From IMG/VR virus record IMGVR_UViG_2531839369_000042: 41,177 bases of DNA, one strand, 5' to 3'. The position numbers are program-made. Positions within the stretch are counted from its first letter, which is position 1. Each line of letters starts with the position of its first letter. Shown piece by piece: positions 33,001 to 39,000 of the stretch. This DNA is from a virus (lineage: Duplodnaviria; Heunggongvirae; Uroviricota; Caudoviricetes).

Positions 33001-36000
33001 GAAACGAGCCCATGCCGATACTGGGATACTGGCAACTGGCGAGCCTTCAAACTGTGTGTACATAGTGTTGTACACGACGGATCTGTAAAGCGTCTGTGTA
33101 TTGGGTTTCAGATCAGTAACATACTTATCCCACCACTGATCCAGGCATTCTTTTAATGTCAGTTCGCCGTCACTGGGCGCAAAATAATTTTTAGGGTTAA
33201 CTCCCTTCATGTACAATGCGCGCATCTCACCGACGATAACACGCGCGTCCTTCAGTGAAGTAGACGGATAGCGCCCGACAGTAAGACGTACTGGCTTACC
33301 ATTCCAGCGATAACGGTACTGAAACGTGATAGTTCCTGCTGGAGTAATCCGCACACTTAACCCGTCACCATCGGTGATTTCAGCAGGGCCAGAGTAGGGT
33401 TTTCCGTAGAGGCCTCGTAGTTTGGTGTCGCTCAGTGCCAATGCTTTATATCCTGTACACAAGTTTATAATGTATTCTGTACTCAATATGTACGCATTAG
33501 CAAGTGAACAAAACACTTTTCAACGCAAAAGAAGATAATCAACCATGAACAAAAACAAACTTACACCTTGATTTTAAAACCATAAAGACGGTATTATCAG
33601 TCATATGGTGAACAACCAAAATCAATACGCAACAATGTCCTCTTAGTTAAATGGATATAACGAGCCCCTCCTAAGGGCTAATTGCAGGTTCGATTCCTGC
33701 AGGGGACACCATTTATCAGTTCGCCTCCATCCGTACCAGTCCGCAAAATCCCCTGAATATCAAGCCTTCCGTAGATTCACAGTTCGTCATGGTTCGCGTC
33801 AGATCGTTGACAGCCGCACGCCATGACGGGTAAAAAGTGGATAAAATAATTTTACCCACCGGATTTTTACCCATGCTCACCGTTAAGCAGATTGAAGCAG
33901 CAAAGCCGAAAGAAAAACCATACCGCCTACTCGATGGTAATGGCCTGTACCTTTATGTCCCTGTATCAGGGAAAAAGGTATGGCAGCTTCGCTACAAGAT
34001 TGACGGTAAGGAGAAAATCCTGACCGTCGGAAAATATCCGCTTATGACTTTGCAAGAGGCAAGGGATAAAGCATGGACTGCGAGGAAAGACATCTCGGTT
34101 GGCATCGATCCGGTAAAGGCGAAAAAGGCTTCGTCTAACAACAATTCCTTTAGTGCGATTTACAAGGAATGGTACGAGCATAAGAGGCAAGTCTGGTCAG
34201 CCGCCTATGCGACTGAACTTGCAAAAATGTTTGATGACGACATTTTACCTATCATCGGCGGCCTTGAAATTCAGGATATTGAGCCGATGCAACTGCTGGA
34301 AGTAATCCGCAGATTTGAAGATCGCGGGGCAATGGAGCGAGCCAACAAAGCACGCAGAAGATGCGGCGAGGTTTTCCGTTACGCTATTGTCACCGGAAGG
34401 GCTAAATATAACCCGGCACCTGACCTTGCTGAAGCCATGAAGGGATACCGCAAGAAGAACTTCCCGTTTTTACCTGCCGACCAGATCCCGGCATTCAACA
34501 AAGCACTTGCAACATTTTCAGGAAGTATCGTATCTCTCATTGCGACCAAAGTTTTACGCTACACAGCACTAAGAACGAAAGAGCTTCGTTCCATGCAATG
34601 GAAGAACGTCGATTTTGAAAACAGGATTATCACCATCGAGGCCAGTGTGATGAAGGGACGCAAGATTCATGTGGTTCCGATGTCGGACCAGGTTGTTGAA
34701 CTTCTCACTACGCTAAGCTCCATCACTAAACCAGTATCAGAGTTTGTTTTTGCCGGGCGCAACGATAAGAAGAAGTCAATCTGTGAGAACGCTGTACTGC
34801 TTGTGATCAAACAAATCGGCTATGAAGGTCTGGAAAGCGGTCACGGATTCAGGCATGAATTCAGCACGATTATGAACGAGCACGAATGGCCTGCTGACGC
34901 TATTGAAGTGCAACTAGCACATGCCAACGGCGGATCTGTGCGTGGGATTTACAACCATGCTCAGTATCTCGATAAGCGCAGAGAAATGATGCAGTGGTGG
35001 GCGGACTGGCTTGATGGGAAGGTGGAGTAGTTATTACAACGATTCTTATAAAAAAGAAAAGCCTTGCACATATAGCAAAGCTTTTCACTTCTCAGGATTT
35101 CTTACACCAAGAAACCATCAACAATAACAAAATGCAATTATTATATGTTAACTACATATGCATTTCATTAAAACCAATCATAAATGCTTATCATACTTTA
35201 ATTGCTATAATTGATTGCCTTCTATTTTTTCAACTCGAGTGGTTGAAACATCATTCTTAAATCCACTCCACCATTTTCTTAGCTTATTGTTTATTGGCTT
35301 TTCAAAAAACAAATACATCATTATTGATATAAATAATGAAGCAAACAGAGCCATTACTATAAATTTAATTACACTTATAGCACCAAGACCAGAAACATTA
35401 AAGAACTTGCTCAATGTACTGATTACTATAGTATGGACCAAGTAAAATGAAAAAGAAGCATCACCTAAAAGTATCATAACTTTATTTGATATTATTTTTG
35501 AAATAATACCACCATTAAACGAAAACACTAATATTGAAAAGGCCATTGATGGTATAAAAAGCGCATCATACTGTAATCCATTGCTATTTTGACTTTTTGC
35601 CACCATATAGACAGACATTAGGATAAAGACTACAGATGATATTTCAGCAAATGATAGAACTAAATATGACGGCTTTGACTTAAACTCAAAATCTCCGGCC
35701 TGATTGCTGCGGATTGTCTCTGCCAGCCTGCCTCGGTCAATCTCACGACCAGCCATCTTGTCCTGAACATTGAAGTAGTCAATCGGACCGAGAGCAGCCA
35801 TCCCAAGGTGATAAACAAACTCACCAAACCCTGAAGGATTCTGCTGATACATCTGAGCAACGTTGTTAGGGTCAACACCGACGCGCGCCAGTTCCTTGGC
35901 GTTGTTTTGCAGCCATGATTGCATTGCTTCTGGAGACGAGGCCGCAAGGCGTGCGCCAGCCGCTAAGGTGCCGATAGAATTGCGCTGGTCTTCGTCTGCC

Positions 36001-39000
36001 CACTTCATACCAGACTGAATCTTCTCTAATTGACCAGGATATTTGGTCATCAGATCTCGAACCTGCTGTCGATCGCCGGACTGGATGGCTGCCGCATATT
36101 CTTTTTGGAATGCAGCATCCGCTTCCTGTTGCTTTGCGGCTTGAGATGTTTGAGCGACACTACCAAGTCCCTGCAACGCCTGAAGGCCGATGTTATTGCG
36201 ACCTGAACGCTCCATTTCGTTGTTCTGGCGAATATAGGCCAACGCCTCACTTACATCACTTGCCTTTGGCGCATTTGAGTTTTGCCCACCGATACCAGCA
36301 AGAAAACCGCCTGAGTTGATTCCTTGTTGCCAAGTAGCCATATTCCCACCTTAAAACAATGATCCAAGACCACCGATAACACCGCCAGCAAGAGCACCAA
36401 TACCAGTCCCAATAACAGGAACTGCACTACCAATCATTGCACCTGATGCGGCCCCACCAATGGCACCTGTAGCAAAACTCTGTAGGCCTGAAGGCTTATT
36501 CGCATTTGCTGCCGATGCTGCCGCCTGCTGTTGATACAATTGGCTGACATTGTTAGCGTAGTTCTGTCCGGCGTTTGCCTGACCTGTAAGAGCACCAAGG
36601 CCGATATTTGCCAGATTGTTGTAGTTGTTCATCTGACCTGACAGCCAGTTTTGACCGAGTGTAGGTGCGATTGCTGCTAACTGGTTTCCTGTTGCTGTAG
36701 AGCCTAATCCACCCGTTGCCTCTGCTGCTGCCAGACTCTGATAGCGCGCCTGCCCTGCAAGGTCTTTATACTGCTGAGAGTTGTAATACTGGTTAAGCGC
36801 CTGACCTTGCCCCTGAAGAGAGGAAAGATTCTGCAACTGTGATACGTACTGCTGAGCGAGTGGCGTGAACGGTGCAAGGTTTTGCATGTTCGTCTGCCAC
36901 ATTTCACGCTGCAGTTCGATGCCCTTTTCAGTTGCGCGTGCCTGGGCTTTAGATCCGGAGTCGCTGCCGCCTTTCATATACCCATTCATGGGAAGCAATT
37001 TATTCTTGAAGCTTTCGCTAAGTACTAACATTTAATAGCTCCTCATATTTCGAACGAGGTAATTGATAGAGGGTGATTCCTACCGGTTTTCCGTTACTCA
37101 TGTACGCATCATCAAGGTGACCAACACGGGTAGCGCCAAGCAAACGGATAATTGCCCGTCCGTATTTGGTGGTGTCAGGAACCATGGTGATGCTGTTAAG
37201 GAATGGTGAGTTTTCGAGAAGCCATTTGCAGAATAATCGATGCCCTTGTAGTGCATATTCGCCACGGAATCCGGGGTCATACACCGCATGGCATTCAACA
37301 ACGCTATGCCAGAAGTTACGCACTTCATGAACTCCAGCCAGCACTAATCCTTCGTAGATGCCGAGATATACCGCATCAGGCTTGATGTAGTATTTATCTC
37401 CACTGTCTACGATATTCCCCGTGTTTACCGGGTTGTTAAGGAATTCTGCAAGTTTCACCGGGTTATCGATGAGCTTTATTTCCATCACTGCTCCGCAATG
37501 ATTTTGATGGTTGTGGCAGTAAACGCCGCGCCATTCGACTGAATGGTTAACGTGCTGCCATTTGTGGCAAGAAAGCCGTCTTTATCCACGCTGAAGAACG
37601 TAGCTAACAGGATGTTGTCGGTTGTTGTTGCCGAGTTGCGACTGCTTACTAGCGTGTCAGGAACAGAACCGGAGAATGTTAGCTGCATTGACCTGTTGGC
37701 GGTTCCGCTGGGCCACGTCCCGACAATCGACAGCTTGAAGAACAAGGTTTTGTTCTCGTTGAACACAACCATCTTGTTGTTAACGGTGTCGAAGAATGGT
37801 GCCAACGTCCCGGATGACGGCGTAAGCGTTTTCAGCAGGCTAACAAGGTTGGTCGGCGCTGTCGGGATGGTTACTGATACGCCAGAGTAAACAACCTCTG
37901 ACTTCTTGCGCGTAGTGGCATACTCCAGAGCATTAATGCGCGTTTCATGGTCTGAAACCTGCGATTCCAGCGACTGAACTCTGGTATCAAGCGATGCAAT
38001 ATCGCTTTCATTCAAGGCAATCAGTGGGTTTACGTCATGGAGTGGGCTCAACACCAGTCAGAGCCGCATGTACACGCAATAATCATGGTGAACGAAAGAA
38101 GCATTAATGGGCAAGCTGGCAAAATTGTCAGCAAATGGGTAACACTGGCAAACAATGCAATCCCATCAAATGTTCCTCCCCAGTGGGATCTAGATTTGAA
38201 AGGTCAGCAATATTCAGAGCCTACAAAGTGTATAGGTAAACAGATTGATTACATGGCAAAGCCCGAAACTAAGTTAAATGACTTTAATAGAGAGGCGAGC
38301 AAGAGCCTATATGATTGGTCAGATGCCAACGTTTGGGGTTATTCGAATGGCTGGGCGCGGCATGAGATAAAAAAAGAAACACTTTCTATCACTGGCTTTC
38401 ATGCTGTAAGACGCATACTAAAAGCCGTTCAGGCATCAAGGAAAGACAACTACAAAGCTAAGCGACAGATACAGCGTACATTGAAACGACAAGACATAAA
38501 TCGATCACCAATCACCCCGTTCCAAGCACCGTTAATTAGCAAACACGATTGGGATTTATCAGTGATAGCGGTCACCAAAGAGGCAGAGACAGAGCGCAGG
38601 GAATTACTATCCTCACAGATAATAAACTCGAACAAAGTACAAACCCACCCACTGTTAAGGATGTTAAGAAGAGCACGAGTGAGAGCATCCAGAGCCAAAA
38701 GAGAAAGCGGAGGTTATGACCATTACTACTAGTAGTGACAGATCGTGACAAGGCGGTGCAAAAAACGACCAATAATAAGAGAGATATGCCTGCCAAACCG
38801 CCAAAAGCGCGGAGCGCGGCAAACGCCGCGAGAGGCGCAAGAAGGCGAACCTATCCATTGAAACGGTCAGAAGCGCATCGCGCTCGACGACCGAAGTCCC
38901 CACTAACACCGTTAACGAAAGATCAAAGTCTTAGAAAAAAATGACGTTTCTTTGATGGACTTCCATCCGTAAAAATCAAATTTTGAGAAAAAGTACTTAT

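What the first reader, a model, noticed from the sequence alone, without database searches (positions are those of the whole stretch)
35205..37031. Frameshifted virion-protein gene fused to an acyltransferase-3 C-terminus: a deletion scar with a sharp composition change
ORFs 36351-37031 and 35205-36341 look like one Gly/Gln-rich phage protein broken by a frameshift. The last 150 codons switch abruptly to AT-rich, hydrophobic acyltransferase-like sequence (an O-antigen acetylase type tail) lying only 175 bp from intS. This matches decay of a serotype-converting CPS-53/Sf6-like prophage in which the O-antigen modification module next to int has been truncated and fused.
Basis: partly seen in the sequence, partly recalled or inferred. 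Interest (0 to 1): 0.4.

Follow-up and report, generated by a model that had tools for sequence, protein, structure and literature searches.

The report
Deletion-scar chimeric gene in prophage remnant Sp16
This is an ordinary deletion scar in Sp16, a known dead P22/Sf6-like prophage remnant of E. coli O157:H7. The front half of a phage DNA-ejection gene has been joined in frame to the tail end of a membrane acyltransferase gene, and the upstream gene is intact rather than frameshifted.

Summary
The window is E. coli O157:H7. The finding lies in Sp16, the known, highly disrupted 'P22-like' prophage remnant at tRNA argW.

Confirmed:
- ORF 35205-36341(-) is a chimera. Codons 1-217 are the N-terminal domain of the P22 gp20 / Sf6 gp12 ejection protein. 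Codons 218-378 are the C-terminal third of an Acyl_transf_3 membrane acyltransferase.
- The DNA junction maps to 35692|35691.
- GC drops from 52% to 29% at the junction.
- The ORF ends 174 nt from intS.

Not confirmed:
- There is no frameshift. ORF 36351-37031 is an intact, full-length P22 gp7 / Sf6 gp11 homologue. It is in the same frame as the next gene and separated from it by TAA plus 6 nt, exactly as in intact phages.
- The acyltransferase is not Sf6 Oac. It has the opposite orientation to oac in Sf6, being co-directional with the virion genes. Its closest intact relatives (53% and 38% identity) both lie just downstream of a tailspike gene on the same strand.

Most likely one deletion of about 5-8 kb removed the gp20 3' half, gp16, the tailspike and the acyltransferase 5' part, including its conserved N-terminal AT3 motifs.

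The scar is fixed in 309 of 5426 complete E. coli genomes of the O157:H7/O55:H7 lineage. It is ordinary and of low interest.

The parts
33637..33711 (+). tRNA-Arg(CCT), argW; attachment site of the Sp16 remnant
   Evidence: ARAGORN; Rfam tRNA; annotated as argW in Sakai
33837..35030 (+). intS, tyrosine integrase of the Sf6/HK620/CPS-53 type
   Evidence: Pfam Phage_integrase plus Arm-DNA-bind_3. About 98% DNA identity to Sf6 int, ending at the stop codon. RefSeq name 'prophage integrase IntS'.
35056..35086 (-). Terminator-like hairpin with a T-run, about 120 nt downstream of the acyltransferase stop. Probably the native terminator of the acyltransferase gene.
   Evidence: Consensus scan only: 12-bp stem followed by TTTTTTATAA. 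Function is inferred.
35205..35691 (-). 3' third of an Acyl_transf_3 (AT3) membrane acyltransferase gene (codons 218-378 of the chimera plus the stop). 29% GC. The N-terminal roughly 215 codons are missing.
   Evidence: Pfam PF01757 profile positions 215-325 of 326. phmmer: 53% identity to residues 219-356 of a 363-aa AT3 protein, E = 4e-37. 38% identity to phage TL-2011b O-acetyltransferase. Alignment. GC.
35692..36341 (-). 5' half (codons 1-217) of a P22 gp20 / Sf6 gp12 ejection-protein gene; deletion junction at 35692|35691
   Evidence: Pfam PF16928, 1-207 of 218. 97% aa identity to phage 720R6 over aa 1-217 only, where the intact protein is 433 aa. Junction sequence.
36342..36350 (-). Native 9-nt intergenic spacer (GGTGGGAAT, Shine-Dalgarno-like) between the gp7 stop and the gp20 start
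   Evidence: Sequence. Identical in 720R6 (columns 1-22). Same spacing in Sf6.
36351..37031 (-). Intact P22 gp7 / Sf6 gp11 ejection-protein homologue (226 aa)
   Evidence: Pfam PF25688, E = 6e-90. 226 of 226 aa aligned without gaps, 94% identity to 720R6.
37018..37488 (-). P22 gp14 / Sf6 gp10 homologue (DUF2824)
   Evidence: Pfam PF11039, full length. Same gene order in Sf6 and 720R6.
37485..38054 (-). 5'-truncated tail-needle gene (Sf6 gp9 knob type). This is the second deletion scar of the remnant; homology to Sf6 starts near 38013.
   Evidence: Pfam Phage_tail_NK. DNA alignment to Sf6 gene 9. RefSeq flags it 'incomplete; missing N-terminus'.

Best explanation
The region is part of Sp16, a fixed, non-excisable remnant of a P22/Sf6-like temperate podophage integrated at argW in the E. 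coli O55:H7/O157:H7 lineage.

Inferred ancestral order: argW/attL, intS (rightward), terminator, then leftward acyltransferase, tailspike, immunity/exclusion genes, gp16, gp20, gp7, gp14 and the needle gene.

One illegitimate deletion of roughly 5-8 kb, between two genes on the same strand, removed:
- codons 218 onward of gp20;
- gp16;
- the tailspike region;
- about 215 N-terminal codons of an AT3 family acyltransferase.

The joint happened to be in frame, so an ORF of 378 codons runs from the gp20 start to the native acyltransferase stop and terminator. The upstream gp7 gene is intact and separate.

The chimera cannot be an acyltransferase, because the N-terminal two-thirds of the AT3 fold is missing, including its conserved N-terminal motifs. 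It cannot be an ejection protein of a virion either, because Sp16 has no head genes, tailspike or late promoter. It is most likely an inert pseudogene that annotation pipelines call a 'phage DNA ejection protein'.

Shown: the domain composition, the junction position, the composition change, the intact gp7, the orientation, the distribution among genomes, and the absence of a native full-length counterpart.

Inferred: a single deletion event, the identity of the deleted genes, and the lack of function.
For: - Identity of the locus: 100% identical to many O157:H7 chromosomes. Sakai annotates 'prophage Sp16; P22-like phage', ECs_3231-3240.
- Domain split at residue 217/218.
- DNA identity to the intact 720R6 gp20 gene ends at 35692.
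- Intact gp20 homologues are 431-433 aa and are followed by gp16 and the tailspike.
- GC is 52.2% on one side of the junction and 29.4% on the other.
- Among 1.84 billion representatives, the acyltransferase part aligns to residues about 215-360 of AT3 proteins of roughly 350-390 aa. The only protein that matches at 218-378 with a gp20 N-terminus is the O157 protein itself.
- The two closest intact relatives lie 70-98 nt downstream of a tailspike gene on the same strand.
- None of the 163 phage records that match the chimera extends past residue 217.
- gp7 is intact and in its native spacing.
- The scar occurs in 309 of 5426 complete genomes, all at 99% identity or more, including O55:H7 strains. 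No diverged copy is found elsewhere in E. coli.
- There is no IS element or repeat at the junction.
- Sp16 showed no excision, replication or packaging (Asadulghani et al. 2009, PMC2669165).
Against: - The parental intact acyltransferase was not found in any collection searched; the best intact relative is 53% identical. So the acyltransferase-side breakpoint, any microhomology, and the claim that both halves came from one prophage cannot be verified.
- The reading frame is preserved. That has a 1 in 3 chance, so it is weak evidence for anything, but it leaves a translatable membrane-anchored protein.
- Expression was not tested.
- The remnant has at least one more scar, the 5'-truncated needle gene, so its history involved several events.
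Confidence: 0.85

Rival explanations
1. ORFs 36351-37031 and 35205-36341 are one virion-protein gene split by a frameshift. Its end is fused to a truncated Sf6-type oac gene that belonged to the O-antigen modification module transcribed with int.
For: Both ORFs are Gly/Gln-rich and adjacent on the same strand. The acyltransferase-family tail and its closeness to intS are real.
Against: - The ORFs are in the same frame and are separated by a stop codon and a Shine-Dalgarno-like spacer that intact phages also have.
- They belong to two distinct Pfam families, and the gp7 homologue is full length.
- There is no significant similarity to Sf6 Oac.
- The orientation is opposite to that of oac in Sf6.
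Confidence: 0.03
2. The two halves come from two different elements. Recombination or deletion between tandem or successive prophages at argW joined them: one contributed attL-intS-terminator-acyltransferase, the other the virion genes. This differs from a deletion inside a single prophage.
For: - argW is a hot spot. In this very window a second, unrelated Stx2 prophage abuts argW.
- Homology to Sf6 stops exactly at the int stop codon, showing that modules are exchanged there.
- Sp16 is described as chimeric or highly disrupted (PMC2669165).
Against: - It is less parsimonious. The order and orientation int | acyltransferase, tailspike ... gp20, gp7 is what a single Sf6-like prophage carrying a tailspike-linked acyltransferase would have.
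- There is no att-like repeat or IS element at the junction.
Confidence: 0.1
3. The chimera is a functional, selected protein. For example, the gp20 N-terminal domain could be anchored in the inner membrane by four or five acyltransferase helices and interfere with the ejection-protein channel of incoming P22/Sf6-like phages, giving superinfection exclusion.
For: - The fusion is in frame, and the breakpoint leaves almost the whole conserved Inj_translocase domain, 207 of 218 profile positions.
- The ORF has been kept uninterrupted since before the O55:H7/O157:H7 split.
- A native terminator-like hairpin is retained.
Against: - All 309 copies are at least 99% identical because the lineage is clonal, so conservation says nothing about selection.
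- No such architecture exists outside this lineage.
- The late promoter that drives these genes in intact phages is gone, and the block is cut upstream inside the needle gene.
- In one transcriptome study only 1 of 9 Sp16 genes responded to treatment (PMC5931665).
Confidence: 0.03

Closest known systems
Prophage Sp16 of E. coli O157:H7 Sakai (ECs_3231-ECs_3240); the equivalent remnant is annotated with the same genes in EC4115
   Same: It is this element. The sequence is identical and the genes are the same; ECs_3232 is the chimera and ECs_3233 is the gp7 homologue. It is described as highly disrupted and showed no excision, replication or packaging (PMC2669165).
   Different: Nothing differs in sequence. 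The papers and annotations I read do not mention the chimeric gp20/acyltransferase nature of ECs_3232. RefSeq calls it an intact 'phage DNA ejection protein'.
Shigella phage Sf6 (Lederbergvirus): genes 9-13, tailspike gene 14, oac, int
   Same: - Same gene order: needle, gp14-like, gp7-like, gp20-like.
- int is about 98% identical in DNA.
- gp12 is 74% identical to residues 1-217 of the chimera.
- An AT3 family acyltransferase lies between the tailspike and int.
   Different: - Sf6 oac is co-directional with int and convergent with the tailspike. Here the acyltransferase is co-directional with the virion genes.
- The fragment is not detectably similar to Sf6 Oac (E = 0.47).
- Sf6 is intact.
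Escherichia phage vB_EcoP-720R6 (Lederbergvirus)
   Same: It is the closest intact source of the virion block. gp7 is 94% identical and gp20 residues 1-217 are 97% identical, with an identical gp7-gp20 junction.
   Different: It has a full 433-aa gp20, gp16 and a tail fibre/tailspike. It carries no acyltransferase at that position.
Phage TL-2011b O-acetyltransferase (368 aa) and metagenomic AT3 protein P0003 (363 aa)
   Same: They belong to the same AT3 sub-lineage as the fragment, at 38% and 53% identity over the C-terminal roughly 140 residues. Both lie directly downstream of a tailspike gene on the same strand.
   Different: They are full length and carry the conserved N-terminal AT3 motifs (SLTSLR...SH, VTFFF.LSGF, SWSIS.E.FFY), which the window copy lacks.

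Membership tests
P22 gp7 ejection protein (Pfam PF25688) | Full-length match to the family profile and to homologues from intact phages | tested here: met
   ORF 36351-37031: E = 5.7e-90, profile positions 16-230 of 230. 226 of 226 aa aligned without gaps, 94% identity to 720R6.
P22 gp20 / Sf6 gp12 ejection protein (Pfam PF16928 Inj_translocase) | N-terminal conserved domain | tested here: met
   aa 12-217, profile positions 1-207 of 218, E = 7.6e-65.
P22 gp20 / Sf6 gp12 ejection protein (Pfam PF16928 Inj_translocase) | Complete protein of about 430-470 aa, including the C-terminal half | tested here: not met
   Homology to the 433-aa 720R6 protein and the 431-aa Sf6 protein ends at residue 217.
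Acyl_transf_3 (PF01757) membrane acyltransferases | Significant similarity to family members | tested here: met
   The Pfam score of 25.9 bits is below the gathering score of 31, because only profile positions 215-325 are present. However, phmmer gives E = 4e-37 to a 363-aa AT3 protein, 51 hits at or below 1e-10, and 1267 hits at or below 1e-3.
Acyl_transf_3 (PF01757) membrane acyltransferases | Complete fold of about ten helices with the conserved N-terminal motifs. From my own knowledge of OafA/Oac-type enzymes, not tested here, the first helix carries the catalytic His. | tested here: not met
   The fragment aligns only to residues about 215-360 of full-length relatives. The SLTSLR...SH, LSGF and SWSIS.E motifs of P0003, P0004 and TL-2011b have no counterpart here.
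Sf6 Oac (serotype-converting O-antigen acetylase) | Sequence similarity to Sf6 Oac, and position downstream of and co-directional with int | tested here: not met
   BLASTP E = 0.47. Opposite orientation relative to int.
Sf6 Oac (serotype-converting O-antigen acetylase) | O-antigen acetylation activity | not testable with these tools
   This needs LPS chemistry. The missing N-terminal two-thirds makes activity very unlikely (inference).
Frameshifted pseudogene (gp7 plus gp20 as one gene) | Two ORFs in different frames that together align to one continuous homologue | tested here: not met
   Same frame. A stop codon and a conserved 9-nt spacer are present in intact phages too. The homologues are two separate genes in every phage examined.
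argW-integrated IntS-type prophage (Sf6/HK620/CPS-53 integration module) | IntS-type integrase immediately downstream of tRNA-Arg(CCT) | tested here: met
   argW at 33637-33711 and intS at 33837-35030. About 98% DNA identity to Sf6 int.

The most novel reading that the evidence does not exclude
The in-frame chimera is expressed as an inner-membrane-anchored copy of the gp20 N-terminal 'injectosome' domain. It would act as a dominant-negative decoy that blocks genome delivery by incoming P22/Sf6-like phages. This would be a superinfection-exclusion function created by accident in a prophage remnant and kept in the O55:H7/O157:H7 lineage.
Probability: 0.03. Interest if true: 0.55.

Novelty: already known. 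Interest (0 to 1): 0.08.

Why it matters
It matters little.

- It gives the exact anatomy (junction 35692|35691) of one scar in a long-known, fixed, defective prophage of O157:H7.
- It corrects an annotation. ECs_3232 and its RefSeq equivalents are labelled as an intact 'phage DNA ejection protein', but they are a gp20'-'acyltransferase chimera and should be flagged as a pseudogene.
- The scar is shared by O55:H7 and O157:H7, so it is a stable lineage marker that predates the O-antigen switch.
- It hints that the ancestral phage carried a tailspike-linked acyltransferase whose intact form has not been sampled.

Tried and rejected
- Frameshift hypothesis: rejected by the frame arithmetic, the sequence between the ORFs, and intact-phage comparisons.
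- Native architecture: searched 50,697 phage records, the 5.8-billion-protein word-indexed set (only a 101-aa partial E. coli entry), 1.84 billion representatives with HMMER, GTDB species genomes (nothing) and IMG/VR (six loci at 99-100% identity, none showing an intact gene). No native counterpart was found and the parental acyltransferase was not recovered.
- Diverged intact copy in E. coli: sensitive blastn of the AT-rich block against 5426 complete genomes found only the same 309 copies.
- Sf6 Oac relationship: not significant.
- IS element or repeat-mediated origin of the junction: no repeats or IS remnants.
- Structured RNA in the region: only argW.
- Literature on ECs3232: no paper holds the term.
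- A local BLAST of phage loci in the sandbox failed because those loci were not exported. It was replaced by DNA alignment.
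Full report
**What the window is.** The 4.5-kb stretch 33600-38100 is 100% identical to many E. coli O157:H7 chromosomes, including EC4115, TW14359 and SS17. In strain Sakai the same DNA is annotated as 'prophage Sp16; P22-like phage', ECs_3231 to ECs_3240, starting right after tRNA argW. ARAGORN and Rfam find tRNA-Arg(CCT) at 33637-33711(+). The integrase intS follows at 33837-35030(+).

Asadulghani et al. 2009 (PMC2669165) list Sp16 among the Sakai prophages that could not be assigned to a phage family because their backbones are chimeric or highly disrupted. 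They record no excision, replication or packaging for it. The finding therefore lies in a known, dead prophage remnant.

**Checking the observation.** Both ORFs exist as stated.

The claimed abrupt switch is real and can be mapped to the base:
- Pfam places Inj_translocase (P22 gp20) on residues 12-217 of the 378-aa ORF. It places Acyl_transf_3 on residues 230-343, matching only profile positions 215-325 of 326.
- The DNA is about 97% identical to the intact gp20 gene of Escherichia phage vB_EcoP-720R6 up to ...CAGGCCGGAGA. It is unrelated from the next base on. In window coordinates the last shared base is 35692 and the first foreign base is 35691.
- GC is 52.2% in 35692-36341 and 29.4% in 35205-35691. 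Third-position GC (GC3) falls from 49% to 24%. The 174-nt spacer to intS is 27% GC.
- Hydrophobic segments of transmembrane length occur only after residue 224.

The claimed frameshift is not real:
- The two ORFs are in the same frame.
- The sequence between them is TAA GGTGGGAAT ATG, that is, a stop codon, a Shine-Dalgarno-like spacer and a start codon.
- The same 9-nt spacing, and in 720R6 the same sequence, separates the corresponding two genes in intact phages.
- The upstream ORF is a complete P22_gp7 family protein (E = 6e-90). It aligns over all 226 residues without gaps at 94% identity to the 226-aa protein of 720R6.

**What the chimera is made of.** Intact homologues of the gp20 part are 433 aa in 720R6 and 431 aa in Sf6 gp12. 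They are followed by gp16 and then the tailspike region. All 163 phage records that match the chimera stop matching at residue 217 or earlier.

The C-terminal 161 residues were searched against 1.84 billion representative proteins:
- They hit 1267 proteins at E of 1e-3 or better.
- The full-length hits are ordinary AT3 acyltransferases, mostly of about 350-390 aa, in which the match covers roughly residues 215-360.
- The best intact one (P0003, 363 aa) is 53% identical over its residues 218-356.
- The only protein matching at 218-378 with a gp20 N-terminus is the O157 protein itself.

In the multiple alignment, the conserved N-terminal AT3 motifs of the intact relatives (SLTSLR...SH, VTFFF.LSGF, SWSIS.E.FFY) have no counterpart in the window protein, whose N-terminus is gp20. 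The acyltransferase is therefore missing about 215 N-terminal residues. From general knowledge of AT3 enzymes, not tested here, that missing part includes the catalytic histidine region.

**Orientation and ancestral arrangement.** The DNA of intS is about 98% identical to Sf6 int, and the homology ends exactly at the stop codon. The cargo next to int is therefore a different module from the one in Sf6.

- In Sf6, oac is co-directional with int and convergent with the tailspike.
- Here the acyltransferase fragment is on the opposite strand to intS and co-directional with the virion genes. It shows no significant similarity to Sf6 Oac (E = 0.47).
- The nearest intact relatives show the likely native layout. 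The TL-2011b O-acetyltransferase (38% identity) starts 70 nt after a 697-aa putative tailspike gene (weak pectate-lyase-like Pfam match) on the same strand. P0003 starts 98 nt after an 860-aa protein with a Tail_spike_N domain on the same strand.
- A terminator-like hairpin with a T-run on the minus strand (35086-35056) lies downstream of the acyltransferase stop. This is consistent with the 3' end of the gene being native.

**Most likely history.** The ancestral prophage had this order: argW/attL, intS (rightward), then leftward acyltransferase, tailspike, accessory genes, gp16, gp20, gp7, gp14 and the needle gene. A single illegitimate deletion between gp20 codon 217 and about codon 215 of the acyltransferase removed the DNA in between.

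The deleted length can be estimated with two intact phages as rulers, adding about 0.75 kb for the acyltransferase 5' part and the spacer:
- With Sf6, the missing virion segment is 4.7 kb, giving about 5.4 kb in total.
- With 720R6, it is 7.1 kb, giving about 7.9 kb in total.

The joint is in frame, which has a 1 in 3 chance. No IS remnant or repeat lies at the junction.

Sp16 has at least one further scar. The needle gene keeps only its 3' part, with homology to Sf6 gene 9 starting near 38013, and RefSeq flags it as incomplete. I cannot exclude that the two halves came from two different elements at argW, because the parental acyltransferase was not found in any collection.

**Distribution.** The AT-rich block and the junction occur once each in 309 of 5426 complete E. 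coli genomes, always at 99% identity or more. Sensitive blastn finds no diverged copy in the other genomes. The carriers include O55:H7 strains TB182A and DEC5B, so the scar predates the emergence of O157:H7. Because the lineage is clonal, this conservation carries no information about selection.

**Function.** The chimera cannot be an acyltransferase. It also cannot serve a virion, because Sp16 lacks head genes, gp16, the tailspike and the late promoter. The default reading is an inert pseudogene that pipelines name 'phage DNA ejection protein'.

The only more interesting reading that the data do not exclude is a membrane-anchored gp20 N-terminal domain that interferes with incoming P22/Sf6-like phages. 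Nothing supports it beyond the preserved frame and the nearly complete Inj_translocase domain. I give it about 3%.

**Verdict.** The feature is an ordinary deletion scar in an already known element, and interest is low.

Noticed in passing
window 4955-6537 (and 1-33516 as a whole): stx2A (Stx2 a/c/d subtype, 5236-6195, minus strand) and stx2B (4955-5224, minus strand) lie next to three tRNA genes (6286-6537). The left 33.5 kb is a lambdoid Stx2 prophage. Its integrase (32272-33516, minus strand) abuts argW on its 5' side, so two unrelated prophages flank argW. This fits the Stx2a-phage-at-argW genotype reported for EC4115 (PMC3519850).
   Followed up: partly
window 37485-38054: This is a second deletion scar in Sp16. 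The tail-needle gene (Sf6 gp9 knob type) keeps only its 3' part. DNA homology to Sf6 starts near 38013, and the listed ORF begins with a GTG in unrelated sequence. RefSeq marks it incomplete.
   Followed up: partly
window 38037-38732 (+) and 39402-40814 (-): Two ORFs of 231 aa and 470 aa have no Pfam or NCBIfam match. The first is called 'phage replication protein' in Sakai. The 39-41 kb stretch is about 35% GC, so it is foreign cargo of unknown function inside the Sp16 remnant.
   Followed up: no
window 35028-35031: DNA identity of about 98% to Sf6 int ends exactly at the intS stop codon. This is a sharp mosaic module boundary between the integration module and its neighbouring cargo.
   Followed up: yes
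window 35205-36341: RefSeq/PGAP (WP_000257010.1) and the Sakai annotation (ECs_3232) name the chimera an intact 'phage DNA ejection/injection protein' without a pseudogene flag. A separate 101-aa database entry for its C-terminus is named 'acyltransferase, partial'.
   Followed up: yes
L012:3-3775 (ENA metagenome scaffold) and L004:4180-7450 (phage TL-2011b): The closest intact acyltransferases sit 70-98 nt downstream of a tailspike gene on the same strand. This suggests a recurrent 'tailspike plus acyltransferase' cassette in temperate enterobacterial phages.
   Followed up: partly
E. coli genome hits H122, H138: O55:H7 strains TB182A and DEC5B carry the same scar at 99.8-100% identity, so it predates the O55-to-O157 antigen switch.
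   Followed up: partly
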